This document shows, piece by piece, positions 11,922 to 54,819 of a DNA stretch of 64,000 bases (positions are counted from its first letter, which is position 1; each line of letters begins with the position of its first letter). Source of the stretch: Candidatus Multivorans sp. (GTDB lineage: Bacteria; Acidobacteriota; Thermoanaerobaculia; Multivoradales; Multivoraceae); assembly GCA_965247095.1 (NCBI GenBank), contig OZ251997.1, positions 2,976,001 to 3,040,000 on the forward strand, written 5' to 3'. The notes under the pieces were generated by a model that ran no database searches, had not been told where the DNA came from, and was given only the letters and a program-made list of their open reading frames with translations. The position numbers and the translations under genes were made by a program.

Positions 11922-12350
11922 ATGAAACTCAAGGCATCCATCGAGCACAAGCCGAACATCCCCACGGCCTCGATGGCCGACATCGCCTTCCTGCTGATCA
12001 TCTTCTTCATGCTGACGATCACCTTCGAGGTCGACAAGACCCAGGTGCAGTTGCCGAAGACGACCCTCAGGTACGAGATCCCGAAGAAGGCCGCCTACGT
12101 GTCGATCGATCCGAACGGTCGCATCCGGGTGTCCGACGGCCAGTCTCAGAGTTCGCTGGTCAGTGCGGCGGACGAGGTGCTTTCGATGGCCGCAACCGTG
12201 ATCTCGACCGATCGGGACAAGACGTTCGTGGTCAAGGCCGACGGCGACGTGCCGTGGGAGAAGGTCGACGAGGTGCTGGATGCTCTGAAGCGGGCCAAGG
12301 TGCGCGATCTGCGCCTGCTGTCCGACCAGCGAACGGTCGACGACCTGTAG
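11922..12350 (+). CDS. exbD: ExbD/TolR family protein 1
   Basis: TM segment with conserved Asp ([14 protein letters not shown]); VVKAD. Confidence 0.9.
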   Translation: MKLKASIEHKPNIPTASMADIAFLLIIFFMLTITFEVDKTQVQLPKTTLRYEIPKKAAYVSIDPNGRIRVSDGQSQSSLVSAADEVLSMAATVISTDRDKTFVVKADGDVPWEKVDEVLDALKRAKVRDLRLLSDQRTVDDL

Positions 12351-12915: not shown

Positions 12916-13674
12916 ATGAGTGATGAGAACCTCGAAGCGGCTGCATCTCCGGCCGCTGAATCCCCGGCCGGGGGGCCACAGGCGGAAGAAGCTGGTGCGC
13001 TGACGTCAGCGGAGCAGGGCCTTCTCACCTACGTTGAGGAAACCCGGGAGGACAACAAGACCTTCCGCTACTCGTTCGGGCTCGCGGTGCTGCTTCACGC
13101 GATCCTGCTGATCGTCAAGCTGCCCGATCTGTACGGCGATGTGGTGGCGCCGCCGCCGAAGCCCAAGGTCTTCGTGGTGCAGCAGGTGCGCTTCAAGCCG
13201 CCACCGCCGGAAATGGAGCAGCAGATTCCGAAGCCCAAGTCGAAGAAGGTTCCGATCCCCGATCCGACGCCCGATGAGCCGGAACCGATCCGCATCGACG
13301 AGCCCGATGAGATCGACATTCCGGAGGTCGACGACCTGGATCTGTTCAACCTGCCCGACGCTCCGCCTCCTCCGGAACCGACCGGACCGATCTACGTCAC
13401 CGGCGAGGTGGCGAAGCCGGTGAAGATCAACGAGGTCAGGCCCCAGTACACGGAGATTGCGCGCAAGGCGCGGATCCAGGGTGTCGTCATTCTTCAGGCA
13501 ACGATCGACAAGAACGGCGACATCACGGACGTCAAGGTGCTGAAGGGCCTGCACATGGGTCTGAGCGAGGCCGCTGTGACGGCGGTCAAGCAGTGGAAGT
13601 TCAAGCCGGCGACCCTCAACGGCAAGCCGGTCGCCGTCTACTACAACCTGACTGTCAACTTCCAGCTCCAGTAG
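12916..13674 (+). CDS. tonB: TonB family energy transducer 1
   Basis: TM with LLH, Pro-rich linker, TonB C-terminal domain ([16 protein letters not shown]...WKFKPA). Confidence 0.9.
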
Positions 13675-15159: not shown

Positions 15160-15900
15160 ATGAGCGACACGAGCCTTGAGGCGGCTGGATCCCCGGCCGA
15201 AGAGTCGGCGGCCGACGCTGTGCCCGCCACGTCAGCGGAGCATGGCCTGTTGACCTATGTGCAGGAGACGCGAAAAGACACCAGGACGTTCCGCTACTCA
15301 CTGGCACTGGCTTTGTTCTTCCACGCGATTCTCCTGCTCGTCAAGCTGCCCGATCTGTACGGCAAGGAGCAGGCGGCGCCACCGGCGCCGCCGAAAGTCT
15401 TCGTGGTGCAGCAGGTGCGTTTCAAGCCGCCGCCGCCGACGGAGGAGATTCGGATCCCGAAGCCGAAGTCGAAGAAGGTGCCGATCCCTGATCCGACGCC
15501 GGAGGAACCGGAGCCGATCCGGATTGACGAACCGAAGCTCTACCTTCCCGAGGTCGACGAGCTGAACTGGAAGATCGAGGTGCCCGCGCCTCCGCCTCTG
15601 GAGGAGCCCGGGCCGATCGAAGTGACCCGTGACGTCATCAAGCCGACGAAGACCCTCCACGTCGACCCGCAGTACACCGAGATCGCGCGCAAGGCGCGGA
15701 TTCAGGGCGCAGTCACTCTGCGGGCGACGATCGATCAGCAGGGTGACATCACCGATGTCGAGGTGCTGAGAGGTTTGCAGATGGGCCTCACCGAGGCCGC
15801 GGTGGCCGCGGTCAGGCAGTGGAAGTTCAAGCCGGCGACACTGAACGGAAGGCCGGTCGCTGTCTACTTCAACCTGACCGTCACCTTCCAGCTCCGGTAG
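15160..15900 (+). CDS. tonB: TonB family energy transducer 2 (close paralogue of 12916-13674)
   Basis: Shared blocks [58 protein letters not shown]. Confidence 0.9.
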   Translation: MSDTSLEAAGSPAEESAADAVPATSAEHGLLTYVQETRKDTRTFRYSLALALFFHAILLLVKLPDLYGKEQAAPPAPPKVFVVQQVRFKPPPPTEEIRIPKPKSKKVPIPDPTPEEPEPIRIDEPKLYLPEVDELNWKIEVPAPPPLEEPGPIEVTRDVIKPTKTLHVDPQYTEIARKARIQGAVTLRATIDQQGDITDVEVLRGLQMGLTEAAVAAVRQWKFKPATLNGRPVAVYFNLTVTFQLR

Positions 15901-15907
15901 GGGTCTG

Positions 15908-16073
15908 CTAGCGCGGCAGAACTCCCAGAGGCCGGCGCTTCGCGCCGGATGCGGGCAGGATGCCCGCGTGCCATCCGTGCGCCCGATGACGGGCGCACGG
16001 ACTGGTTCACGTGTGGCGCGGATCGCGCCACCCGGGTTCCCAGGTCAGATCGTTCTGCCGCGCAAGCCCCTAG
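15908..16073 (+). repeat. Full-length CTAG-bounded multi-hairpin element (166 bp)
   Basis: CTAG at both ends; 12-bp IR GCGCGGCAGAAC/GTTCTGCCGCGC; four internal hairpins at 15932-15948, 15951-15967, 15974-16001 and 16013-16031. Confidence 0.92.
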
Positions 16074-19679: not shown

Positions 19680-19766
19680 CGCGGCAGAACTCCCCGAGGC
19701 CGGCGCTTCGCGCCGGATGCCGGCGGGGACGCCGGCGCACCCGGTTTCTGCCGCGCAATCGCCTAG
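19676..19766 (+). repeat. CTAG-bounded element, two-hairpin copy (91 bp)
   Basis: Same ends as the 15908 copy (11-bp IR; right end GCCGCGCA-N5-CTAG). Confidence 0.9.
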
Positions 19767-34273: not shown

Positions 34274-36712
34274 ATGGCGACCCGTGACGGTGACTGCGTC
34301 GAGCAGGTGGACTTCCGCACCCTGAACCCGGAGCAGTTGGCGGCGGTCACCCACGACGGTGGGCCGCAGCTCGTGATCGCCGGCGCCGGGTCGGGCAAGA
34401 CCCGGGTCATCACCTACCGGATCGCCTGGCTGATCGCCGAGAAGGAGGTCGAGCCGTGGCGGATCGCGGCGGTGACCTTCACCAACAAGGCGGCGGACGA
34501 GATGCGCGGACGCGTCCTCGACCTGGTCGGCGGCAACGCGAACCCGGTTGGCGCGCCCCCGCGCCAACCGCGAACCGGTCCCCGCGCTCGTCAGCGGGCG
34601 CGGGGACGGAACGTCTTCGTCGGCACCTTCCACCGGTTCTGCGTGCGCCTGCTGCGCCGCTACGGGGACCGCGTCGGGCTCCAGTCCGACTTCGCGATCG
34701 TGGACGCGCCGGACCAGTTGCGGCTGATCAAGGCGGCTCTCTTGGCGGAGGACCTGGACGAGCAGACATTTCGGCCTCGCGCGGTCCAGGGCCGGATCAG
34801 CGCGGCCAAGAACCGGCTGCTGACCCCCGCCGCGTTCGAGCGCGAGGCCGAGGACTTCTTCGACCGTCATGTCGCCGCCGTCTACCGCCGCTACCAGGCT
34901 GAGCTGCGCCGGGCGGGCGGCGTCGACTTCGACGATCTGATCGCGCTCGCGGTGCGGCTGCTGCGGGACGAAGCGGAGATCGGCGCGCGCGTTCGGGGAC
35001 GCTTCCGTCACCTGCTAGTCGACGAGTTCCAGGACACCAATGCGGCCCAGCTCGAACTGATCAAGAACCTCGTTCTCGACCCCGACGGCTCGGTCTCCGG
35101 GTTGACCGCGGTCGGCGACGAGGACCAGAGCATCTACGGCTGGCGGGGTGCCGAGATCGACAACCTGCTGCGCTTCGAGCGCCACTTCCCGGGCTCCCAA
35201 GTCCGCAAGCTGGAGCGCAACTACCGCTCGACCCAGAACATCCTCGACGCCTCGGGCGCCGTGATCGCCCGCAACGAAGAGCGGCGCGGCAAGACGCTGT
35301 GGACCGATACGGGCGCGGGCGATCTGCTGCAACTCTTCTTTGCCGCCGATCACGAGGACGAGGCGCGTTGGGTGGTGCGGCAGGTCGCGGCGCTTCGCGC
35401 CGACGGCTTCGAGTTCGGCGATATGGCGGTGCTCGTGCGAACCAACGCCCAGACGCGGGCGATCGAAGACCAGATGCTGCGGAGCGAGGTTCCGTACTGC
35501 CTGGTCGCGGGCGTACGCTTCTACGAGCGTGCCGAGGTCAAGGATCTGGCCGCGTACCTTCGGGTGATCAACAACCCGCGGGACAACCTGTCTCTGCGGC
35601 GGATCCTGAACCAGCCGCGGCGGGGCATCGGCCGTAGGACCCAGGAGTTCCTGCTGGCCCGCGCGGCGAAGATGGGCCATTCCCTGTGGGACGCGATCCG
35701 ACTCGACCCGCTGCAGGAGCTGCCGTCGCGGAGCCGGCGTGCGGTGGATGACTTTCGGGGCCTGATCGAGGCGCTCCGGACGGAAGGCGAGCGCCAACCG
35801 CTGGCTGAACTGGTGCGGGGGACGATCGTCGCGGCCGGGTTCGAGGCCCTGCACGGCAAGGGCGACGAGGAGGGACGGGAGCGGCTCGACAACCTCGGCG
35901 AAATGGTCTCGTCGGCGCAGGACTTTCAGACCCGGTACGGCTGCGAAGACCTGCCCGCCAGGATCCCGACCGCCGCGGTCCCGACCCTCGGCGATCCCCT
36001 GGGTCCGGGCGCGGACCAGGGGGACCAGGGAAACCAGGGGGACGTGGAATCGCCGACCAGTCCGCTGACGAACTTCCTGGACTACGTTGCGCTCGTCAGC
36101 GACACGGACGGCCTGAACGCCGAACTCGGCGTTGGGGTCATGACCCTGCACAGCGCCAAGGGCCTCGAGTACCCGGCCGTTTTCGTCACCGGTCTCGAGG
36201 ACGGTCTGCTGCCCCACTTCCACGCCGGGGGCGGCGCGCGGGACATCGAGGAGGAGAGACGGCTGCTCTACGTCGGCATGACCCGCGCCGAACGGCGACT
36301 GTTCCTGAGCGGCTGCCGCCGCCGGATGGTCGCGGGGGTGTTCCAGGATCGGCAGCCGTCGCCCTTCCTGATCGACGTGCCGGAGGAACTTGTGGAGACC
36401 GCCCAGAGCCCGGACATCTACGCCGGGCCCCGCACCGCGGGCGTCCGCAGCTTCTTCAGCGCCGATCGGTCCGTTGGGGTCCCGTACCGCGCGGGGCCGC
36501 CCTCGGGCGCCAAGCGTCGAGCGGCGGGCGGGCCGTTCAAGCAGGCGGCCGGCGGCTTGCGGCCGGGTGCGCACGTCCGCCACGCCACCCTGGGCAAGGG
36601 CGTCGTCCTGCACCTCGACGGCCAGGGCGAGAACGCCAAGCTGACGGTCTTCTTCGACAAGGCCGGCAAACGGAAGCTGGTCCGCCGCTACGCTCCCCTG
36701 GAGGTTCTCTGA
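34274..36712 (+). CDS. pcrA: UvrD/PcrA superfamily 1 helicase
   Basis: AGAGSGKT, TFTNKAA, VDEFQDTN, VGDEDQSIY, NYRS, TLHSAKGLE, EERRLLYVGMTRA; C-terminal Tudor-like domain. Confidence 0.93.
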   Translation: MATRDGDCVEQVDFRTLNPEQLAAVTHDGGPQLVIAGAGSGKTRVITYRIAWLIAEKEVEPWRIAAVTFTNKAADEMRGRVLDLVGGNANPVGAPPRQPRTGPRARQRARGRNVFVGTFHRFCVRLLRRYGDRVGLQSDFAIVDAPDQLRLIKAALLAEDLDEQTFRPRAVQGRISAAKNRLLTPAAFEREAEDFFDRHVAAVYRRYQAELRRAGGVDFDDLIALAVRLLRDEAEIGARVRGRFRHLLVDEFQDTNAAQLELIKNLVLDPDGSVSGLTAVGDEDQSIYGWRGAEIDNLLRFERHFPGSQVRKLERNYRSTQNILDASGAVIARNEERRGKTLWTDTGAGDLLQLFFAADHEDEARWVVRQVAALRADGFEFGDMAVLVRTNAQTRAIEDQMLRSEVPYCLVAGVRFYERAEVKDLAAYLRVINNPRDNLSLRRILNQPRRGIGRRTQEFLLARAAKMGHSLWDAIRLDPLQELPSRSRRAVDDFRGLIEALRTEGERQPLAELVRGTIVAAGFEALHGKGDEEGRERLDNLGEMVSSAQDFQTRYGCEDLPARIPTAAVPTLGDPLGPGADQGDQGNQGDVESPTSPLTNFLDYVALVSDTDGLNAELGVGVMTLHSAKGLEYPAVFVTGLEDGLLPHFHAGGGARDIEEERRLLYVGMTRAERRLFLSGCRRRMVAGVFQDRQPSPFLIDVPEELVETAQSPDIYAGPRTAGVRSFFSADRSVGVPYRAGPPSGAKRRAAGGPFKQAAGGLRPGAHVRHATLGKGVVLHLDGQGENAKLTVFFDKAGKRKLVRRYAPLEVL

Positions 36713-36748: not shown

Positions 36749-36822
36749 CGGGGCGTGGCGCAGTCTGGTAGCGCACCTGCCTTGGGCGCAGGGGGTCCTC
36801 AGTTCAAATCTGGGCGCCCCGA
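36749..36822 (+). tRNA. tRNA-Pro (TGG), CCA not encoded
   Basis: Acceptor CGGGGCG/CGCCCCG; anticodon arm CCTGC-CTTGGGC-GCAGG; T loop TTCAAAT. Confidence 0.93.
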
Positions 36823-36865
36823 TATCGCTCGCATGCCCAGGCCTCGGCTACTCTGTCGCTTTCGC

Positions 36866-36942
36866 CTGCCTGTAGCTCAGATGGATAGAGCGGCGGCCTT
36901 CTAAGCCGCGGGTCGGGGGTTCGAGTCCCTCCAGGCAGGCCA
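36866..36942 (+). tRNA. tRNA-Arg (TCT)
   Basis: Acceptor CTGCCTG/CAGGCAG; anticodon arm GCGGC-CTTCTAA-GCCGC; CCA. Confidence 0.95.
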
Positions 36943-36972
36943 GATCGTTGAGAGTTTTCGGTCGGAATGTCT

Positions 36973-37049
36973 GGTGGGTGTAGCTCAACCGGTAGAGCAC
37001 TTGATTGTGGTTCAAGTGGTTGGGGGTTCAAGTCCCCTCACCCACCCCA
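36973..37049 (+). tRNA. tRNA-His (GTG)
   Basis: G-1:C73 pair; anticodon arm CTTGA-TTGTGGT-TCAAG; CCA. Confidence 0.95.
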
Positions 37050-37076
37050 TCCTCCTTTCCGCATCGTCCCGTTCGC

Positions 37077-37154
37077 GCGCCCGTAGCTCAGTCTGGATAG
37101 AGCGACGGCCTCCGGAGCCGTAGGTCAGGGGTTCGAATCCCTTCGGGCGCACCA
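37077..37154 (+). tRNA. tRNA-Arg (CCG)
   Basis: Acceptor GCGCCCG/CGGGCGC; anticodon arm ACGGC-CTCCGGA-GCCGT; CCA. Confidence 0.95.
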
Positions 37155-39901: not shown

Positions 39902-40007
39902 CGCGCTCCTGGGCACCCGGGTGGCGCGATCCGCGCCAGCCGCGAACCACTCCGGGCGCCCGTCAGCGGGCGCGCGGATAGCACGCGGGCGTCTCGCCCG
40001 CATCCGG
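39898..40007 (-). repeat. Repeat copy: CTAGCGCG end joined to an inverted three-hairpin core
   Basis: Reverse complement of 39908-40007 aligns to 15945-16044 with a compensatory change in hairpin 1. Confidence 0.88.
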
Positions 40008-43565: not shown

Positions 43566-44848
43566 GGGTCCTGGTCATCGGCAACGGTGGCCGGGAGCAC
43601 GCGCTCTGCTGGCTCATCCGGGAGCGGGCGCCGGCGACTGAGCTCTACTGCGCACCGGGCAGTCCGGGTACCGAGGAGTGCGGCGAGAGCGTTGCGATCG
43701 ACGTTTCGGACATCGAGGGGCTTGGCCGATTTGCGGCCGAGCGCGGGATCGAACTCACCGTGGTCGGCCCCGAGCTGCCGCTGTCTCTCGGCGTGGTGGA
43801 CGCGTTTCGCGAGCGCGGTCTGCGCATCTTCGGCCCCTCCCGCGCCGCCGCGCGCCTGGAGAGTTCGAAGGTGTTCGCCAAGGAGTTCATGCACCGGCAC
43901 GGTGTGCCGACATCCGACTTCGTGGTCACCGACGACCGGGACACCGCGCGCCGGGCGGCGGAACGCTTCGGATTGCCGGCGGTGCTCAAGGCCGACGGGC
44001 TCGCCGCCGGCAAGGGCGTGCTGATCGTGTCCTCGCCGGCGGAGTTGGAGTCCGCCCTGGACGTCTTCTTCGTCGACCGTCGGTTCGGTTCGGCCGGCGC
44101 CCGCGTTCTGATCGAGCCCTTCGTGCACGGCGAGGAGGTCTCCTTCATCGGCTTCTGCGACGGCCGGCGGGTGCTGCCGCTCGCGACCTCCAAGGACTAC
44201 AAGCGGATCGGCGACGACGACGCCGGCCCGAACACCGGCGGCATGGGCGCTCACAGCCCGGCGGGAATCGTCTCAACGGAGCACGCCTTTGAGATCATGA
44301 GCGAGGTCATGGAGCGGACGGTGGCCGGCATGGCCGCCGACGGTACGCCCTTCTCCGGCGTGCTCTACGCGGGTCTGATGATGAGCCCGGACGGTCCCCA
44401 GGTGCTCGAGTTCAACGCCCGGCTCGGAGATCCCGAGGCGCAGGCGCTGCTGCTGCGCCTGGAGGAGGACCCGGTCGACCTGTTCGCGGCCGGCGCCGAC
44501 GGCGACTTCGGACGGTCCGAACTCGCCTTCAGCTCCGGCGCTTCGGCCTGCGTGGTGCTGGCCAACGCGGGCTACCCGGGGAAGGCGGCGTCGGGAGACG
44601 CGATCGAAGGCATCGAAGCCGCTCGAGCGCGCGAGGGCGTGGTCGTGTTCCACGCCGGCACCGACCGCCGGAACGGCCAGGTCATCGCCACCGGCGGACG
44701 GGTGCTGAACGTCTGCGCGGTCGGCGACGATCTGGCTCAGGCGCTTGCGCGGGCCTACGAGGGGGCGGCCCGAATCCACTGGCCGGCCAAGGCGATGCGC
44801 TCGGATATCGGCCGGCGGGTGCTCGGGATGGGAGCGGGCTTGTCGTGA
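43562..44848 (+). CDS. purD: Phosphoribosylamine-glycine ligase
   Basis: VIGNGGREHAL, KADGLAAGKGV, GPNTGGMGA, EFNARLGDPE; TTGA coupling to ispH. Confidence 0.96.
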   Translation: MRVLVIGNGGREHALCWLIRERAPATELYCAPGSPGTEECGESVAIDVSDIEGLGRFAAERGIELTVVGPELPLSLGVVDAFRERGLRIFGPSRAAARLESSKVFAKEFMHRHGVPTSDFVVTDDRDTARRAAERFGLPAVLKADGLAAGKGVLIVSSPAELESALDVFFVDRRFGSAGARVLIEPFVHGEEVSFIGFCDGRRVLPLATSKDYKRIGDDDAGPNTGGMGAHSPAGIVSTEHAFEIMSEVMERTVAGMAADGTPFSGVLYAGLMMSPDGPQVLEFNARLGDPEAQALLLRLEEDPVDLFAAGADGDFGRSELAFSSGASACVVLANAGYPGKAASGDAIEGIEAARAREGVVVFHAGTDRRNGQVIATGGRVLNVCAVGDDLAQALARAYEGAARIHWPAKAMRSDIGRRVLGMGAGLS

Positions 44849-45597
44849 GTTGCGGCGGCTGCAGCTTTGCCGGTCAATCGACCGCGGTGGAGGACACGTT
44901 CGTCGGCGTGCGCTTCGGTGAGGAGACGAACCTGACCCTGTGCCGGACGGGCGGCGAACTGCTGGCCCGCGGTGATGAGGTGATCGTGTCGATGAAGCCG
45001 GGTCCGGCCTACGGCCGGGTGGAGAAGTCGCCCATGCCGGTGTTCAAGCCGTGCCAGAAGTCGAGCGCCCGGTCGCTGATCCGCCGGGCGGACGACGCCG
45101 ACCGCGCGGCAAGAGAGCGGCAACTGACGAACGAGGTGCGCGGCAAGACGTTCTGCCGTGAGCGGGCGCGGGCGCTCGGCCTGGAGATGAAGGTGTCCCG
45201 GGTCGACTTCAGCTTGGACGGGCGCAACGCGACGTTCTACTTCACCGCCGATCGGCGGGTCGATTTCCGGCAGTTGCTGCGCGACCTGAAGTCCCGCTTC
45301 AAGTCCCGGGTGCGACTGGTTCATGTCGGGCCGCGGGACGAGGCGCGGCTGCTGGGCGGCGTCGGCATCTGCGGTCGGACGTTGTGCTGTTCGACCTGGA
45401 TCGACGACTTCCGGCCCATCTCGATCCAGATGGCCAAGCGCCAGGGTCTGAGTCTCAACCCGTCCAAGATCTCCGGCTCGTGCGGCAGGCTCCTGTGCTG
45501 CCTCGCGTACGAGGATGACGAGTATCGCCGCCGTCGTCCGAAAGAGAGGTCCTGGTCGGGCGGCCGCGAAGGTGGCGCGCTGCCGGTCCTGAGCTGA
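44845..45597 (+). CDS. PSP1-domain / RicT (YaaT) family protein
   Basis: FYFTADRRVDFRQL, GICGRTLCC, MAKRQ, KISGSCGRLLCCLAYE. Confidence 0.9.
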   Translation: MSCGGCSFAGQSTAVEDTFVGVRFGEETNLTLCRTGGELLARGDEVIVSMKPGPAYGRVEKSPMPVFKPCQKSSARSLIRRADDADRAARERQLTNEVRGKTFCRERARALGLEMKVSRVDFSLDGRNATFYFTADRRVDFRQLLRDLKSRFKSRVRLVHVGPRDEARLLGGVGICGRTLCCSTWIDDFRPISIQMAKRQGLSLNPSKISGSCGRLLCCLAYEDDEYRRRRPKERSWSGGREGGALPVLS

Positions 45598-45602
45598 GCC
45601 GG

Positions 45603-45742
45603 CCTGGGAACCCGGCTGGCGCGGAATCGCGCCAGCCGTGAACCACTCCATGCGCCCGTCATCGGGCGCATGGATGGCACGCGGGCATCCTGCCCGCATC
45701 CGGCGCGCAGCGCCGGCTCCGTCTCCGCGCTCCCCTCGCTAG
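45603..45742 (-). repeat. Four-hairpin repeat copy between convergent genes
   Basis: Reverse complement aligns to 15931-16044 with compensatory pairs; begins CTAGCG, which is the sugar-transferase stop. Confidence 0.9.
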
Positions 45743-47178
45743 GAGGCGCCGCGGCGGGTAAGCACCGCCGGGATCGTCTTGAGGAGGATCTTGAAGTCGA
45801 GGGTCGGCGACCAGGAGTCGATGTACTCCAGGTCGAGTTCCATCCAGCGGTCGAAGTCCAGATCGCTGCGGCCGCTGACCTGCCACAGACACGTGATGCC
45901 CGGCTTCATCGACAGGCGCCGCCGCTGCCGCCTTGTGTACGGCTCCTTCTCCTCGAGAGGCCTTGGGCCGACCAGGCTCATGTCGCCGCACACGACGTTC
46001 CAGAATTGCGGGAGTTCGTCGAGGCTGAACTTGCGCAGGTAGTGCCCGAGCGGCGTGATCCGCGGATCGCGGTGCATCTTGAACGCGGGACCGCCCATCG
46101 TGTTCAGGTGCTTCAGCTCGCCCCGTTTCGCGTCGGCGTCCGCGACCATGGTGCGGAGCTTGTACATGGTGAAGCGGCGGCCGTTCAGACCGCAGCGCGT
46201 CTGCCGATAGAGCACGGAGCCGGACGAAGTGATCTTGATCAGGAGCGCCAGCACCAGCATCACGGGCAGGCTGATCGCGAGCAGGACGACGCCGATGCAG
46301 ATGTCGTAAAAGCGTTTGAACAGCAGCAGGGGAAGGCTGGACGGCGCCGGCGACAAGGTGACGACGGGCCGGCCGGCAAGAGAATCGAGTTGGACCTGAC
46401 TGTGGGCCGGCGGGAGCAGGTCGAGCGCGATGCGGGTCTGGATGCCCTGTTCCTGCAGCGCATCGAAGATCTTCTGCAGGGCGGGCAACTCATTGGGCGT
46501 GACGGCAAAGAACACGTCGTCGATTACGTGCTCGGAGACGATGCGCAGGATGTCGTCGACGCCGCCCCAGACCGGTTGCGCCGCCTCAGCGGGCTTGCTC
46601 CCGTCCGTGTGGATCAGGCCGACGATCCTGAGGCCCCAGTAGGAGTGGTCCTCGATCGACTCGGCGAGTTGCCGGGCCGCTTCCGGGGTGCCGGCGATGA
46701 GCACGGCTCGCTGGTTGATACCGTGCCGCCGCAGGTCGCGCGAGAGGATGCGCAGCGCGATCTTCTCGGTCAGCAGCAGCAGGCAGGAAAGGCCGGAGAA
46801 GAGAAGCAGCCAGGGTCGGCTGAGGCGGTCCTGGAGCAGGAGCTGGTCCAGTTGGAGGACGAAGACGGCGAACAGGAGCAGGAACGTGGCGACTGCCGAC
46901 ACCTTGAGGATCGCGGCTGCCTCGGTCCTCAGGTCGGCGGTGCGGTGCGAGCGGTAGCGCCGGGTGGCGATGAGCGGCGCCATCCAGGTCAGGAGCGCCA
47001 GCGGCAGCAGCGGTAGATGGTCGCCCAGGGGATAGAGCGGACGGGGGAAGAGGCCCGGCAATACCTGGGGGAACAGTCCGCTGCGGATCGCGTAGGCGAG
47101 GAAGAACGCCGCCGCGACCAGCGAGAGGTCGAGGGAGAAAATCAGGGCGGCTTGCAGTCGAATGCGCTGTTTCAACAT
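45739..47178 (-). CDS. Polyprenyl-phosphate hexose-1-phosphate transferase (WcaJ/WbaP family)
   Basis: N-terminal TMs, KRFYDI, YKLRTM, DPRIT, SLDELPQFWNV.GDMSLVGPRP, KPGIT. Confidence 0.92.
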   Translation of the reverse strand: MLKQRIRLQAALIFSLDLSLVAAAFFLAYAIRSGLFPQVLPGLFPRPLYPLGDHLPLLPLALLTWMAPLIATRRYRSHRTADLRTEAAAILKVSAVATFLLLFAVFVLQLDQLLLQDRLSRPWLLLFSGLSCLLLLTEKIALRILSRDLRRHGINQRAVLIAGTPEAARQLAESIEDHSYWGLRIVGLIHTDGSKPAEAAQPVWGGVDDILRIVSEHVIDDVFFAVTPNELPALQKIFDALQEQGIQTRIALDLLPPAHSQVQLDSLAGRPVVTLSPAPSSLPLLLFKRFYDICIGVVLLAISLPVMLVLALLIKITSSGSVLYRQTRCGLNGRRFTMYKLRTMVADADAKRGELKHLNTMGGPAFKMHRDPRITPLGHYLRKFSLDELPQFWNVVCGDMSLVGPRPLEEKEPYTRRQRRRLSMKPGITCLWQVSGRSDLDFDRWMELDLEYIDSWSPTLDFKILLKTIPAVLTRRGAS

Positions 47179-47285: not shown

Positions 47286-49514
47286 TCAGCGCCGTTCGCA
47301 GAGCCGCCTGAACAACTCTTCGTACTGGTCCGTGACCCGGTCCCAGTTGAACTCGGACGCCGCCCGGCGAGCCGCTCGTTCGCCCAGGAGACGCGCCCGG
47401 ACCGGGTCGCCGGCGGCCCGCTCGAAGGCCGCGGTGAGCGAGGCCTGATCCTGAACGTCGAAGTAGATGGCGGCCTCGGCGGCCGTTTCGCGGTTGGCCG
47501 GTTCGTCGTTGACCAGCACGCAGTTGCCGTAGCCCATCGCCTCGACCAGCGCCGGATGGGTGCCGCCGACCTCGGTGGCGTGTACGGTCGCGCGCGCGGA
47601 CGAGAGCAGGCCCCGGTACCGGTCGCCGTACACGGCGCCCGGGAAGCGCACTCGCGGATCGGCGGTCCTCTTCATCTCGGCGATGAAGTCCGAGGCGTAG
47701 GGGGCGTCGCCGACCATGACCAGGGGCAGGTTGCCGTCTGCCTGGGCGTAGGCGGCGACCACGCGGTGCGGGTTGTTCTCCGGCTCGAAGCGGCTGACGT
47801 AGAGAAAGTAGCGCCGGGGTTCGAGTCCCAGCTCCTTCAGGACAGGGTGAGAGACGATGGGTTGGGGCTCGACGCCATAGCGGATCATCGTCGTGCTGCG
47901 GCCGTACCGGCCGCGGTAGTGGTCGGCGATGACTTCGGCGTCGCTGATCGTTGTGCCCGGCAACAGGCAGGCCAAGCGTTCGGAGAGGGCGTACACGAGG
48001 CGGCCGGGCCAGCCCCATTTCGCTCTTCGCTTCTCGATTCCGTCCACGTGCAGGGCGGTACGGATGCGCCGCGGCCAGAGCAGCGGCAGGAAGACCGCAT
48101 TCGCGCCGTTGACGACCAGCGCGGCGCGGGCGCCGCGGGCGAAGAGCGTCGCGTGGAGGCAGGAGAGCAGCGTGTGGACGGGGGTGTCGCCGTACTTCGT
48201 GCGCAGCGTCGGCAGCACCACCAGTTCGACGCCGCGGTGCGAGCGGTGCCGCCGGTCGACGTAGTGGGACCGGCAGTAGACGGTGACCGGCCAACTGCGT
48301 TCCGCCAGGCGGGGCGCCAGCGCCTCGATCATCGTCTCGTAGCCGCTGTATGCCGCGGGTATGCCGCGGCTGCCGATGATCAGAATCCTTGGCCGCTCAG
48401 GGTCGAGCGGCAGGGAGGCCCGCCCGAACCACCGTGCCGTCGAGTGCTTCGGCACGCGGCGGCGGGCGCGGACCAGGCGACGCCGCTCGAGGATGCGACG
48501 GCGGTTGCGCCACAGCCAGGCGTAGGCGGCCAGCGACGAGGGCTCGCGCAGCAGCACGTAGCCGAGGATGCCGAACTCCCGGATCGAGGTCATAAGAAGG
48601 GTGCGTGGGGCGTCGGCCAGGCTGCGATGGTAGAGCTGCAGCAGGTAGCGGTTCTTGAGCGAGTGGAAGTTGACTTCACGCGACATCTGCCGCCGCCGCC
48701 GGGGCAGGTTGACGCGGCCGTGTACCGCGCGGGCCCGGGGTTCATAGAGCACCTCCCAACCCCGTTCCCGCAGCCGGAAGCAGAGTTCCGCGTCCTCGCG
48801 ATAGGAGTGGAAGTCGCTGTCGAGGACCTGGCCCGCGACCGCCGCGTCGCGCAGCGCGGCGCTCAGGAACAGAATGGCGGCGCCGCTGCCCCCGAACACC
48901 CGCTCTGTTACCGGATACTGGCCGCAGTCGACCTCGTCGGCGCCGCGGTCCTCGTGGCGCCAACTCCGGGTCAGGCGCATGCCGCACGCGTCAATCCGTG
49001 GCGGGGTGTCCCCGTTCGGGGCTTGGTCACGAAGCAGTCGGCCGGTGACGGCCCCGACCGGCTGCTCCGGCGTGGTGAACCGTTCGAGGCACGCGATCAG
49101 GCGGGCCGCGTAGTCCGCCGAGACCCAGGCGTCGGCGTTCAGGCTCAGCACGTAGGTCGGTGGCCCGTCAGTCTCCGCGCCGTTGCCGAAGGCGGTCTCA
49201 AGCGCCCGGTTCAGGCCGCCGGCGAAGCCGGTGTTCTCGTCCAGCGCGATCAGCTCAACCGGGAAGGCTACTGAGTCCGCGCCCTCTCGAAGGCGTTCGA
49301 GGGTGGCGTCCGTACTGGCGTTGTCGACCACGATGAGCCGGAATGGCGGGCCCTCGAGCGACGCCAGCGCTTCGAAGAAGCGGGGCAGGTTGGCCGCGTC
49401 GTTCCAGGTGACGGTGCAGATCGCGAGGTCCGGCGTGGCGGCCGCGGAGTCGCCCGCCCCTGGGACGCGGGCGTCTCGCCCGCACTCGGGGCCGGCGTTC
49501 ACGGGCGCCTCCAA
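47286..49514 (-). CDS. Fused GT2 + GT4 (DUF1972-like) glycosyltransferase
   Basis: GT2 motifs VVDNASTD, NTGFAGG, YREDAEL; GT4 motifs GSRGIPAAYSGYET, SRFEPENN, GGTHPALVEAM. Confidence 0.88.
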   Translation of the reverse strand: MEAPVNAGPECGRDARVPGAGDSAAATPDLAICTVTWNDAANLPRFFEALASLEGPPFRLIVVDNASTDATLERLREGADSVAFPVELIALDENTGFAGGLNRALETAFGNGAETDGPPTYVLSLNADAWVSADYAARLIACLERFTTPEQPVGAVTGRLLRDQAPNGDTPPRIDACGMRLTRSWRHEDRGADEVDCGQYPVTERVFGGSGAAILFLSAALRDAAVAGQVLDSDFHSYREDAELCFRLRERGWEVLYEPRARAVHGRVNLPRRRRQMSREVNFHSLKNRYLLQLYHRSLADAPRTLLMTSIREFGILGYVLLREPSSLAAYAWLWRNRRRILERRRLVRARRRVPKHSTARWFGRASLPLDPERPRILIIGSRGIPAAYSGYETMIEALAPRLAERSWPVTVYCRSHYVDRRHRSHRGVELVVLPTLRTKYGDTPVHTLLSCLHATLFARGARAALVVNGANAVFLPLLWPRRIRTALHVDGIEKRRAKWGWPGRLVYALSERLACLLPGTTISDAEVIADHYRGRYGRSTTMIRYGVEPQPIVSHPVLKELGLEPRRYFLYVSRFEPENNPHRVVAAYAQADGNLPLVMVGDAPYASDFIAEMKRTADPRVRFPGAVYGDRYRGLLSSARATVHATEVGGTHPALVEAMGYGNCVLVNDEPANRETAAEAAIYFDVQDQASLTAAFERAAGDPVRARLLGERAARRAASEFNWDRVTDQYEELFRRLCERR

Positions 49515-54729: not shown

Positions 54730-54819
54730 GGAGGGGTGGCTGAGTGGTCGAAAGCACCGGTCTTGAAAACCGGCGTGGGTCAACGCCCACCGTGGGTTCG
54801 AATCCCACCCCCTCCGCCA
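54730..54819 (+). tRNA. tRNA-Ser (TGA)
   Basis: Acceptor GGAGGGG/CCCCTCC; anticodon arm CCGGT-CTTGAAA-ACCGG; long variable arm; G73-CCA. Confidence 0.95.

What the first reader, a model, noticed from the sequence alone, without database searches (positions are those of the whole stretch)
45603..45742. Compensatory base-pair changes in the repeat hairpins imply selection on secondary structure
Seen in sequence, with copies in one orientation. Hairpin 1 is GCGGGCA-gga-TGCCCGC (15951, 45681), GCGGGCG-aga-CGCCCGC (39985, 49467) or GCCGGCG-ggga-CGCCGGC (19719). Hairpin 2 is TCCGTGCGCCCG..CGGGCGCACGGA (15974) or TCCATGCGCCCG..CGGGCGCATGGA (45647). Hairpin 3 is GTGGCGCG..CGCGCCAC (16013) or CTGGCGCG..CGCGCCAG (within 45613-45638). 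That is four double substitutions preserving pairing, while linkers such as TGGTTC and CCGGGTTCCCAGG stay conserved. Inference: the element functions as folded ssDNA or RNA, such as a transposase substrate, a guide/bridge-like ncRNA, or a 3' UTR stability element. Caveat: template switching within hairpins can also make arms symmetric without selection.
Basis: partly seen in the sequence, partly recalled or inferred. Interest (0 to 1): 0.75.

Follow-up and report, generated by a model that had tools for sequence, protein, structure and literature searches.

The report
Mobile hairpin repeats with their transposase
The four-hairpin block is one copy of a family of small mobile palindromic DNA repeats (REP-like) whose core hairpin brackets the genome's only REP-type transposase gene. 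The paired base changes in its stems are real, but they are a known hallmark of such repeats.

Summary
Observation confirmed. Every hairpin and every double substitution sits at the stated coordinates. Genome-wide, the eight strongest covarying column pairs of 2346 are all stem pairs.

The element (window 45600-45737) fills the spacer between two convergent genes. It is a nested composite of a REP unit (tag CCTGGGAAC, hairpin H1, hairpin H0) with a 69-nt two-hairpin module B (H3+H2) inserted between tag and H1.

- About 251 H1 hairpins and about 150 B modules occur in this 4.6-Mb genome.
- H1 arrays flank, in inverted orientation, the genome's single RAYT (HUH/Y1 transposase) gene.
- RAYT homologues in many phyla are flanked by the same hairpin: covarying stem, conserved RGGA loop, conserved GNTCC tag.
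- Relatives have the orthologous spacer empty, or with the REP lacking B.
- An in-gene B copy has a clean empty site, showing insertion 3' of (G/C)AAC.
- Wobble mismatches and orientation relative to replication both single out one strand, and neither follows mRNA sense.

Best reading: ssDNA hairpin substrates of a Y1 transposase, with stems kept by that requirement. An RNA role is neither shown nor excluded.

This is a new member of a known kind (REP/RAYT) with a non-GTAG tag. Earlier notes of this scan describe this repeat family elsewhere in this genome and a look-alike repeat in another genome.

The parts
45600..45737 (+). Whole inserted block (138 nt) between the stop of the PSP1-domain gene (44845-45597, +) and the stop of the sugar-transferase gene (45739-47178, -). 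The + strand here is the candidate 'active' strand, with the tag 5' of the hairpins.
   Evidence: Contigs of a roughly 94%-identical relative join 45599 to 45738 with 10 other letters between. The orthologous spacer is 1-38 nt and repeat-free in 13 of 17 resolved genus genomes.
45603..45611 (+). REP tag CCTGGGAAC, the reverse complement of GTTCCCAGG.
   Evidence: It directly adjoins H1 in 122 of 251 H1 hairpins. The GNTCC part is at least 90% conserved next to the hairpins flanking RAYT homologues of many phyla.
45612..45680 (+). Module B: a 69-nt two-hairpin unit (CCGG-H3-linker-H2-TGGCAC) nested between the tag and H1. Its boundaries are ambiguous by the 2 nt 'AC'.
   Evidence: G056 has the same REP at the same site without these 69 nt. 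Covariance model R1 matches 45607-45681 at 95.4 bits. B also occurs alone 73 times and in tandem arrays.
45613..45638 (+). Hairpin H3: 11-bp stem, 4-nt loop.
   Evidence: Fold. Covarying pairs 112-134, 113-133, 114-132 and 115-131.
45647..45674 (+). Hairpin H2: 12-bp stem, loop TCAT.
   Evidence: Fold. Covarying pairs 77-100, 78-99, 79-98 and 84-93.
45681..45697 (+). Hairpin H1, the REP proper: 7-bp stem, loop TCC (GGA on the other strand).
   Evidence: 251 copies in the genome. It flanks the RAYT gene. The stem covaries across phyla while the loop is conserved.
45700..45716 (+). Hairpin H0: 7-bp stem, 3-nt loop.
   Evidence: Fold. It adjoins H1 through ATCCGG in at least 88 copies. Its covariation is weak.
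45717..45738 (+). Tail CTCCGTCTCCGCGC.., read as a degenerate remnant of the inverted-repeat end of the MITE-like long form.
   Evidence: Comparison by eye with the long-form consensus. The tail is shared with G056 and absent from empty sites. This is an inference.
15908..16073 (+). Full long-form copy: CTAG, inverted-repeat end, H0, H1, B (H2, H3), tag, inverted-repeat end, CTAG.
39908..40007 (-). Copy with H1 + H2 + H3. Its H1 is the G-C/AGA variant.
34539..34613 (-). Module B inserted in frame inside a long ORF (66 extra nt).
   Evidence: G016 and G056 have the uninterrupted site GCCAAC|GTCTTC.
49467..49483 (-). Solitary H1 hairpin, G-C/AGA variant.
19699..19752 (+). H0 followed by the GCCGGC-type hairpin variant.
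   Evidence: I3, I21, D15. The same stem type flanks RAYT homologues elsewhere.

Best explanation
The block is non-autonomous mobile DNA of the REP/RAYT kind, built from two nested units.

Unit 1 is a REP: a 7-bp GC hairpin (H1) with a conserved tag (CCTGGGAAC on the strand where it lies 5' of the hairpin) and a companion hairpin H0. Unit 2 (module B) is a 66-69-nt element with a hairpin near each end (H3, H2). It inserts 3' of (G/C)AAC, here the GAAC that ends the REP tag.

Proposed mechanism (inferred): when DNA is single-stranded, mainly on the lagging-strand template, the hairpins fold. The genome's single HUH/Y1 transposase (RAYT) recognises hairpin shape, loop and tag, and cuts next to GAAC. 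Copies with a broken stem stop being substrates. Surviving and newly copied units therefore carry either the original pair or a compensated one, while loops, linkers and tag stay fixed.

Shown here: the repeat family, the covariation, the RAYT linkage, the presence/absence polymorphism, the insertion junctions and the strand biases. Inferred: that this RAYT binds and cuts these hairpins, and that it also moves module B.
For: 1. One Y1_Tnp gene in the genome.
   - Pfam 33.7 bits against a cut-off of 23.
   - NCBIfam REP_Tyr_transpos E 1.9e-22.
   - HUH and Y..NP motifs are invariant among 15 homologues.
   - The only PDB sequence match is E. coli TnpA_REP 4ER8, E 2.9e-8.
2. The gene is bracketed by inverted H1 arrays with H2+H3 outside them. 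The same holds in G016 (7+7 hairpins) and G050 (4+3).
3. Of 81 RAYT loci from many phyla, 65 carry a perfect 7-bp hairpin with an RGA-type loop, and 47 carry at least 2 identical copies. Where two or more identical copies are listed, copies upstream of the gene mostly read '-' and copies downstream '+' (read from the table, not tallied).
   - 5 of 7 stem pairs show double changes, with 0 of 500 shuffles reaching the observed covariation score.
   - The adjoining GNTCC tag, which was not selected for, is at least 90% conserved.
4. Mobility.
   - The finding's site is empty in 13 of 17 relatives.
   - It holds the REP without B in G056 and an independent H1 insertion in opposite orientation in G024.
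   - An empty-site contig was also seen.
   - The in-gene B has a clean empty site in G016 and G056, with AAC at both junctions.
   - 73 standalone B copies show variable flank + GAAC|CCGG on the left and GG(C/A)AC + variable flank on the right.
5. One strand is singled out.
   - Stem mismatches are A.C 86 against G.T 47 on the model strand (p 9e-4), so wobble is tolerated on the tag-5' strand.
   - There is no bias by mRNA sense, 27 against 32.
   - The tag-5' strand lies on the inferred lagging-strand template in 138 of 220 H1 hairpins, p 2e-4.
6. Literature (passages read).
   - TnpA_REP binds and cleaves single-stranded REP but not its complement. In the S. maltophilia system a mid-stem mismatch affects or almost eliminates cleavage, swapping stem bases to their complements has no drastic effect, and one loop base is essential (PMC8266576).
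   - Compensatory changes are common in REPIN hairpins (PMC3116915).
Against: - No biochemical or transcript data exist for this organism.
- RAYT presence does not track repeat abundance in the genus. Of 11 genomes with at least 94 scored B hits, 5 have no RAYT match at E <= 1e-10. Close orthologues of this RAYT were found only in G016 and G050.
- Both element-free genomes also lack a RAYT, but 2 of 2 against 16 of 22 is not significant, and related genomes are not independent.
- Module B is linked to the RAYT only by adjacency to H1 and by the shared GAAC motif.
- The classical GTAG tag is absent.
- NCBIfam scores 79.8 bits, just under its 80-bit cut-off.
- Origin and terminus were inferred from GC skew only, and the orientation bias is 63:37, not absolute.
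- Pair counts count copies, not independent events.
- The cross-phylum hairpins were picked by requiring perfect pairing, so their 100% pairing is circular.
- Arm symmetrisation by template switching would also give compensated pairs.
Confidence: 0.65

Rival explanations
1. RNA-level cis element. The hairpins act in the 3' untranslated ends of the flanking mRNAs, as exonuclease barriers or terminators as described for E. coli REPs, and stems are kept by selection on RNA folding.
For: - Copies lie near gene ends: the median distance to a facing 3' end is 24 nt against 64 nt to a facing 5' end.
- Convergent spacers are modestly enriched, 71 of 292 against 18% expected, p 0.017.
- In co-directional spacers the tag-5' strand is in mRNA sense in 61 of 96 copies, p 0.01.
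- REP roles in mRNA stability and termination are cited in the reference lists read (PMC6006769).
Against: - No T-tract terminator at the finding.
- Wobble against A.C mismatches show no bias by mRNA sense, 27 against 32.
- 52 of 292 clusters lie in divergent spacers, and 44 of 336 lie in frame inside coding sequence.
- The same hairpins bracket a transposase gene in many phyla.
- No Rfam family matches.
- The gene calls behind the context figures are my own crude GC3-based calls.
Confidence: 0.12
2. No selection on structure. The arms of quasi-palindromes are made symmetric by intra-strand template switching or gene conversion, and a few compensated founders were then amplified into subfamilies.
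For: - Some covarying pairs mark subfamilies. The closing pair of H1 (A-T 92, G-C 61) is linked to loop base 59.
- Cells count copies, not events.
- Gene conversion has been proposed for REPs (title of Higgins 1988, seen only in a reference list).
Against: - Many different compensated states occur at the same pair. Pair 79-98 shows all four Watson-Crick types.
- Unrelated stem sequences accompany the same loop and tag beside RAYT genes of distant phyla.
- The mismatch spectrum is strand-asymmetric, 86 against 47, which symmetric correction does not predict.
- Unpaired loops and linkers are conserved in sequence.
Confidence: 0.15
3. The composite copies travel as MITEs moved by a DDE transposase through terminal inverted repeats, not by the RAYT. 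The hairpins are cargo.
For: - About 30 copies, in 85-nt and 153-nt core size classes, have inverted-repeat ends (GCGCGGCAGAAC...) and are flanked by CTAG or TAG.
- The finding's copy keeps a degenerate remnant of one such end.
- The genome holds about 30 DDE_Tnp_1 genes, and some of those IS ends also abut CTAG.
Against: - No IS with matching ends was found; only GTTCTG is shared.
- Most H1 and B copies lack these inverted repeats.
- The finding's copy has no second inverted-repeat end.
- B moves on its own with different junctions.
Confidence: 0.1
4. A trans-acting structured ncRNA, such as a guide or bridge RNA of a recombinase or a small regulatory RNA, encoded by each copy.
For: Multi-hairpin architecture with conserved unpaired segments.
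Against: - No promoter-like site at the finding.
- No Rfam match.
- No adjacent recombinase gene at this copy.
- Hundreds of copies in both orientations, some inside genes.
Confidence: 0.03

Closest known systems
REP elements with their RAYT / TnpA_REP transposase (REPtrons) of E. coli, Pseudomonas and Stenotrophomonas (PMC3116915 and PMC8266576, passages read; Nunvar 2010, recalled and seen cited)
   Same: - Short GC-rich palindromes in hundreds of mostly extragenic copies.
- One HUH/Y1 gene bracketed by inverted cognate repeats.
- Compensated stems with a conserved loop and flank.
- Excision/insertion polymorphism.
- Occasional in-frame copies inside genes.
   Different: - The tag is CCTGGGAAC (GGANC across phyla), not GTAG.
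- By the three motifs of Table 1 in PMC6006769, the protein (NHVH, W-M, YIE.NP) matches neither subclass 2.2 nor 2.5, which correspond to Bertels Groups 2 and 3, the REP-rich ones.
- Units are single hairpins in head-to-tail order, not inverted doublets (REPINs).
- The host is not a proteobacterium. Earlier notes of this scan call it Acidobacteriota; I did not check this.
BIMEs (bacterial interspersed mosaic elements) of E. coli (recalled; cited in PMC6006769)
   Same: Mosaic combinations of a few palindromic units and conserved linkers, with several architectures and tandem arrays.
   Different: The units here share one orientation instead of alternating. One component (B) behaves as an independently inserting unit with defined junctions.
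IS200/IS605-family elements (IS608, ISDra2) and their ORF-less derivatives (abstract of PMC6006769 and passages of PMC8266576 read; derivatives recalled)
   Same: For module B:
- A hairpin near each end on the same strand.
- Insertion 3' of a short specific sequence without clear target duplication.
- Orientation bias relative to replication.
- A Y1/HUH enzyme in the genome.
   Different: - B is only 66-69 nt and carries no gene.
- Cleavage sites would lie 1-6 nt from the hairpins.
- The orientation bias for B alone is weak, 91 against 66, p 0.055.
- No TnpA_IS200-type gene was found apart from the RAYT.
GTAG- and CGTC-tagged REP superfamilies, and TIRYT/TIRtron elements including an acidobacterial group (PMC3733652, passages read)
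   Same: - Tagged stem-loops.
- Dimers and clusters, and intragenic units.
- Tyrosine-transposase genes flanked by inverted repeats that are themselves members of repeat families.
   Different: The tag matches neither GTAG nor CGTC, nor the GGGGWSAS motif reported for TIRtron repeats. Whether this RAYT belongs to their acidobacterial TIRYT group could not be tested, because their alignment is in a supplement I could not see.

Membership tests
REP/RAYT system (REPtron) | Short palindromic unit in high copy number, mainly extragenic | tested here: met
   251 H1 hairpins in 4.6 Mb. 292 of 336 repeat clusters lie outside apparent coding frames.
REP/RAYT system (REPtron) | Low-copy Y1/HUH transposase gene flanked by its cognate REPs in inverted orientation | tested here: met
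   A single Y1_Tnp match. H1 arrays lie on both sides with opposite orientation in G000, G016 and G050. Most of the 47 other loci with repeated hairpins show the same pattern, as read from the table and not tallied.
REP/RAYT system (REPtron) | Catalytic HUH motif and Y...NP tyrosine motif | tested here: met
   H123-V-H125 and Y183..N187-P188 are invariant in 15 homologues. They align to E. coli TnpA_REP 4ER8.
REP/RAYT system (REPtron) | Conserved GTAG (or GT[AG]G) tetranucleotide 5' of the hairpin | tested here: not met
   The conserved flank is CCTGGGAAC within this genome and GGANC across phyla. No GTAG is present.
REP/RAYT system (REPtron) | Strand-specific binding and cleavage of single-stranded REP by the enzyme | not testable with these tools
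   Only indirect evidence: wobble asymmetry of 86 against 47 and orientation relative to replication of 138 against 82.
NCBIfam NF047646 REP-associated tyrosine transposase | Score at or above the curated cut-off (80 bits) | tested here: inconclusive
   79.8 bits, E 1.9e-22.
REPIN (Bertels and Rainey 2011) | Two inverted REPs forming one long hairpin as the replicative unit | tested here: not met
   The fold gives four separate short hairpins and no long-range pairing. The units lie head to tail.
MITE | Terminal inverted repeats plus target-site duplication, and a related autonomous IS | tested here: inconclusive
   About 30 long or short forms have inverted-repeat ends and CTAG/TAG flanks. 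The finding's copy has at most one degenerate end. No matching IS was found.
IS200/IS605-like ORF-less element (module B) | Subterminal hairpins on one strand, insertion 3' of a specific tetranucleotide, no target duplication | tested here: inconclusive
   Hairpins: yes. Two filled/empty comparisons place B 3' of (G/C)AAC, and 73 standalone copies show variable flank + GAAC|CCGG. A 3-nt AAC duplication cannot be told apart from 'target plus look-alike right end'.
Intrinsic terminator | GC hairpin followed by a T run | tested here: not met
   0 sites in 45300-46000.
Any Rfam RNA family | Covariance-model score at gathering threshold | tested here: not met
   Only tRNAs in the window. The best sub-threshold hit has E 0.42 and lies far below its gathering score.

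The most novel reading that the evidence does not exclude
This RAYT belongs to a very large, multi-phylum clade with 5889 database homologues at E <= 1e-10. Its three signature motifs sit closest to the subclass that the literature reports as having no identifiable REPs (Quentin subclass 2.1 / Bertels Group 1).

On this reading, the clade does have a conserved cognate REP: a 7-bp covarying stem, an RGGA loop and a GGANC tag. That would be a third tagged REP superfamily beside GTAG and CGTC.

The same enzyme would also drive a 66-69-nt two-hairpin mini-element (B) that inserts 3' of GAAC, including into the tag-hairpin junction of REPs themselves. That would explain how mosaic (BIME-like) repeats are assembled.
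Probability: 0.3. Interest if true: 0.6.

Novelty: new member of a known kind. Interest (0 to 1): 0.35.

Why it matters
For annotation, these blocks should be masked as mobile repeats. They inflate ORF calls: database RAYT proteins carry translated REP arrays at their ends. They also fill 3' spacers and sit in frame inside genes.

For biology, this genus offers a natural series for studying how REP mosaics are built and how a Y1 transposase picks its substrate without a GTAG guide. The series comprises 42 species genomes, with 0 to more than 116 scored B copies, with and without a RAYT, and with filled and empty orthologous sites.

The covariation itself is an expected property of REP-type repeats. 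It does not point to a new RNA.

Tried and rejected
- **Rfam.** At gathering threshold and at E <= 10 on one copy, nothing was usable.
- **RNA evidence.** The three RNA runs are kept as contigs and hold only 10-12% of the words. Laying them gives no starts, ends or strand, so there is no verdict on transcription.
- **Terminator and promoter scan.** None found.
- **First gene caller.** It put 99 of 258 hits 'inside genes'. This was an artefact of taking the longest ORF. I replaced it by masking the repeats and testing flanks for coding signal.
- **First origin/terminus guess.** The guess from the raw cumulative skew was wrong. I redid it from the skew profile.
- **Alignment A2.** It put the loop-length gap at the 5' end. 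I replaced it with the 3-nt-loop set A3.
- **Alignment A5.** It was contaminated by 30 weak opposite-strand self-matches. I replaced it with A6.
- **Autonomous partner of the inverted-repeat form.** No consistent long pairs of ends, and the ends of five DDE IS families do not match.
- **Orthologous site of the 15908-16073 copy.** In five relatives no clean empty site was found. The 39908-40007 site is also not clean in G056.
- **RAYT against repeat co-occurrence across the genus.** No significant association.
- **Full-text search for the hairpin words.** Only primers and unrelated hits.
- **Subclass assignment of the RAYT.** It rests on three motifs from a table. The reference alignments are in supplements I could not read.
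- **Loop-to-tag pairing (GGGA with TCCC).** Considered, but not pursued. The AGA-loop variants do not covary with the tag, and a 3-4-nt loop could hardly pair.
Full report
**1. The observation**

The window is 66-72% G+C. It lies at 2976001-3040000 of a 4.617-Mb single-contig genome with 67.7% G+C.

The copy at 45603-45742 is the reverse complement of the copy at 15930-16045. The four double substitutions are as described:
- H1 closing pair A-T against G-C.
- H1 GCGGGC against GCCGGC.
- H2 G-C against A-T.
- H3 G-C against C-G.

The hairpins are not chance:
- The H1 pattern occurs 4 times in the window against 0.26 expected.
- The H2-plus-linker pattern occurs 3 times against 0.04 expected.
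- Either strand of 45598-45740 folds into four separate hairpins, with z about -6 and 0 of 200 shuffles as stable.

**2. The family**

A profile built from 16 long copies finds 266 hits in the genome, 258 after removing opposite-strand self-hits. A simple pattern finds 251 H1 hairpins.

The family is modular. Its parts are H0, H1, H2, H3, a tag GTTCCCAGG and, in about 30 copies, inverted-repeat ends with CTAG/TAG flanks. The forms seen are:
- H1+tag alone: 122 of 251 H1 hairpins adjoin the tag directly.
- H0+H1.
- H1+H2+H3.
- H2+H3 alone: 73 copies, sometimes in tandem with a 68-nt period.
- Full long forms.

**3. Covariation**

On the profile alignment several stem pairs show two to four Watson-Crick states with few mismatches.

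APC-corrected mutual information on 137 distinct H2+H3 rows ranks stem pairs first to eighth among 2346 column pairs. For H0+H1 the top pair is the H1 closing pair.

A covariance model of H2+H3 gave an alignment of 43 copies from this and related genomes:
- 97.9% of cells are paired.
- 8 of 23 pairs and 24 cells carry double changes.
- 0 of 500 shuffles reach this.
- Slid-partner controls give 0-3 pairs.

Two caveats apply. That alignment is fitted to the model and made of the best-scoring copies, and cells count copies rather than events.

**4. What it is tied to**

The genome has one Y1_Tnp match. It is a 214-aa protein with the following support:
- Pfam 33.7 bits against a cut-off of 23.
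- NCBIfam 'REP-associated tyrosine transposase' 79.8 bits against a cut-off of 80, E 1.9e-22.
- HUH and Y..NP motifs are invariant among homologues.
- The only PDB sequence relative is E. coli TnpA_REP (4ER8).

The gene lies 77 kb left of the window and is bracketed by inverted H1 arrays with H2+H3 outside them. The 99%- and 76%-identical orthologues in two genus genomes are bracketed by 7+7 and 4+3 H1 hairpins.

The protein has 5889 database homologues at E <= 1e-10, many named 'REP element-mobilizing transposase RayT' by their source. Across 80 homologous loci from many phyla plus this one:
- 65 of 81 carry a perfect 7-bp hairpin with an RGA-type loop.
- 47 carry at least two identical copies.
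- Where two or more identical copies are listed, upstream copies mostly read '-' and downstream copies '+'. I read this from the table and did not tally it.

The stems differ between loci (GCGGGC, GCCGGC, GCGAGC, GCGGAC, GCAACC and others), while the loop and the adjoining GNTCC stay the same. Five of 7 stem pairs show double changes.

I selected those hairpins for perfect pairing, so their pairing percentage is circular. The variety of stems and the unselected conserved tag are not circular.

**5. Mobility and anatomy of the finding's copy**

The element fills the 141-nt spacer between the stop codons of a PSP1-domain gene and a Bac_transf sugar transferase.

Contigs of a roughly 94%-identical relative join 45599 to 45738 with 10 other letters between.

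Among 17 genus genomes where both flanks could be placed:
- 13 have a 1-38-nt spacer without the repeat.
- G056 has tag+H1+H0+tail but lacks exactly the 69 nt of H3+H2 between CCTGGGA(A/G)C and H1.
- G024 has an independent H1 insertion in the opposite orientation.
- G053 and G045 hold other repeats.

The finding is therefore a REP with a second unit (module B) nested between its tag and its hairpin.

A B copy inside a long ORF (34539-34613) has a clean empty site. G016 and G056 read GCCAAC|GTCTTC. G000 and G024, read, have 66 extra nt with AAC at both junctions. G055 (read one base out of register) and G053 (by the full-length match) carry the insertion too.

In 73 standalone B copies the left junction is variable flank + GAAC|CCGG, the right end is GG(C/A)AC + variable flank, and tandem junctions read CAC|CCGG.

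**6. Which strand, DNA or RNA**

I call the strand with loop GGA and the tag 3' of the hairpin the model strand.
- On the model strand, stem mismatches are A.C 86 against G.T 47 (p 9e-4). Wobble is therefore tolerated on the complementary, tag-5' strand.
- Sorted by mRNA sense, there is no bias: 27 against 32.

GC skew is positive at 0-1.1 Mb and 2.5-4.6 Mb and negative between. With that assignment, the tag-5' strand lies on the lagging-strand template in 138 of 220 H1 hairpins (p 2e-4). For B-containing hits the figure is 91 against 66 (p 0.055).

Both signals point to the same DNA strand. This matches what is known of Y1 transposases: they act on single-stranded DNA at the fork, and they recognise REP but not its complement (PMC6006769 abstract; PMC8266576 passages).

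On genomic context (with my own crude gene calls):
- 292 of 336 clusters are extragenic and 44 lie in frame in coding sequence.
- Convergent spacers are modestly enriched, p 0.017.
- The median distance to a facing 3' end is 24 nt.

There is no T-tract terminator at the finding and no Rfam match. Only RNA contigs were available, so transcription cannot be judged.

**7. Distribution**

- The composite is found in 22 of 24 same-genus genomes. In 16 genomes of other families of the order there is one weak match.
- The B model hits 40 of 42 genus genomes, with 0 to at least 116 scored hits per genome.
- A RAYT at E <= 1e-10 is present in 25 of 42.
- The two repeat-free genomes lack a RAYT, but so do 5 of the 11 most repeat-rich genomes.

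The link between RAYT and abundance is thus not shown. Loss of the gene with persistence of old copies is one possible explanation, and it is untested.

**8. Comparison with what is known**

Compensatory changes in REP/REPIN hairpins, RAYT genes flanked by REPs, tandem clusters, excision polymorphism and intragenic copies are all described (PMC3116915, PMC3733652; passages read).

In vitro results from PMC8266576 predict the observed pattern of covarying stems with fixed loops and tag:
- In the S. maltophilia system a mid-stem mismatch affects or almost eliminates TnpA_REP cleavage, while swapping stem bases to their complements has no drastic effect.
- For the E. coli REP, swapping stem bases to their complements leaves binding and cleavage detectable.
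- In the S. maltophilia system one loop base is essential.

The differences here are:
- No GTAG or CGTC tag.
- Head-to-tail single hairpins rather than inverted doublets.
- A nested, independently inserting two-hairpin unit.
- A RAYT whose three table motifs (NHVH, W-M, YIE.NP) match neither subclass 2.2 nor 2.5. These correspond to Bertels Groups 2 and 3, the only groups reported with abundant flanking 16-mers. The motifs lie nearest subclass 2.1, reported as 'REP: no'. That assignment is weak.

A full-text search for the hairpin words found nothing relevant, and searches for RAYT with Acidobacteria found only the papers above. This is not proof that the family is undescribed.

**9. Earlier notes of this scan**

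Earlier notes of this scan describe REP-like hairpin repeats, nesting and in-frame copies elsewhere in this genome. They also describe a 68-69-bp two-hairpin repeat in another genome, which they label Thermoanaerobaculia. My results agree with them and add the RAYT bracket, the cross-phylum hairpin, the strand signals and the insertion junctions.

**10. Verdict**

The thing itself is a REP/RAYT-type mobile repeat mosaic, a new member of a known kind, with some unrecorded features. Confidence is 0.65 and interest is 0.35.

Noticed in passing
window 15908-16073; genome-wide list: About 30 copies form a MITE-like family in two size classes (85-nt and 153-nt cores). They have inverted-repeat ends (GCGCGGCAGAAC...) flanked by CTAG or TAG, often right at stop codons. 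They carry H0+H1, with or without module B. No autonomous partner was found.
   Followed up: partly
window 34539-34613: Module B sits in frame (66 nt, 22 codons) inside a long ORF. G016 and G056 have the uninterrupted gene. Genome-wide, 44 of 336 repeat clusters lie in open, coding-like frames.
   Followed up: partly
G000:C1:442058-442276 and 4083954-4084175 (outside the window): Head-to-tail triple arrays of module B with a 68-nt period. The first lies inside an ORF call.
   Followed up: no
proteins P0003, P0004, P0009, P0012, P0013: Database RAYT proteins carry N- and C-terminal repeats such as GARASRPH and GTPALPG. These look like translated REP arrays, meaning gene calls that ran into the flanking hairpins.
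   Followed up: no
whole genome: GC skew changes sign at about 1.1 Mb and about 2.5 Mb. This implies very unequal replichores (about 1.4 and 3.2 Mb), or else a rearrangement or assembly issue.
   Followed up: no
G000:C1:292365-292439, 2537278-2537350, 3784432-3784516: Three B copies have H3 replaced by an unrelated hairpin (CTTGC...GCAAG) at the same position, while H2 and the linkers are kept.
   Followed up: no
window 45598-45738 and orthologous spacers: This one convergent spacer has been hit independently several times in the genus: the REP in G000 and G056, H1 in the other orientation in G024, and other repeats in G053 and G045.
   Followed up: partly
window 12981-13658 and 15207-15884: Two stretches 2226 nt apart are 73-82% identical (D1-D3). 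This is a tandem duplicated gene segment just upstream of the 15908 repeat copy. A second pair at 11958/12432 is 84% identical.
   Followed up: no
window 36749-37151 and 54730-54816: A cluster of four tRNA genes and one further tRNA gene.
   Followed up: no
whole genome: About 30 DDE_Tnp_1 transposase genes in several IS families, one with 13 copies. Three of the five families compared have ends that abut CTAG or TAG.
   Followed up: partly
H1 units, e.g. L001:2110-2145: The 4-nt loop variant GGGA is complementary to TCCC in the adjoining tag GTTCCCAGG. No covariation supports a loop-tag pairing.
   Followed up: no
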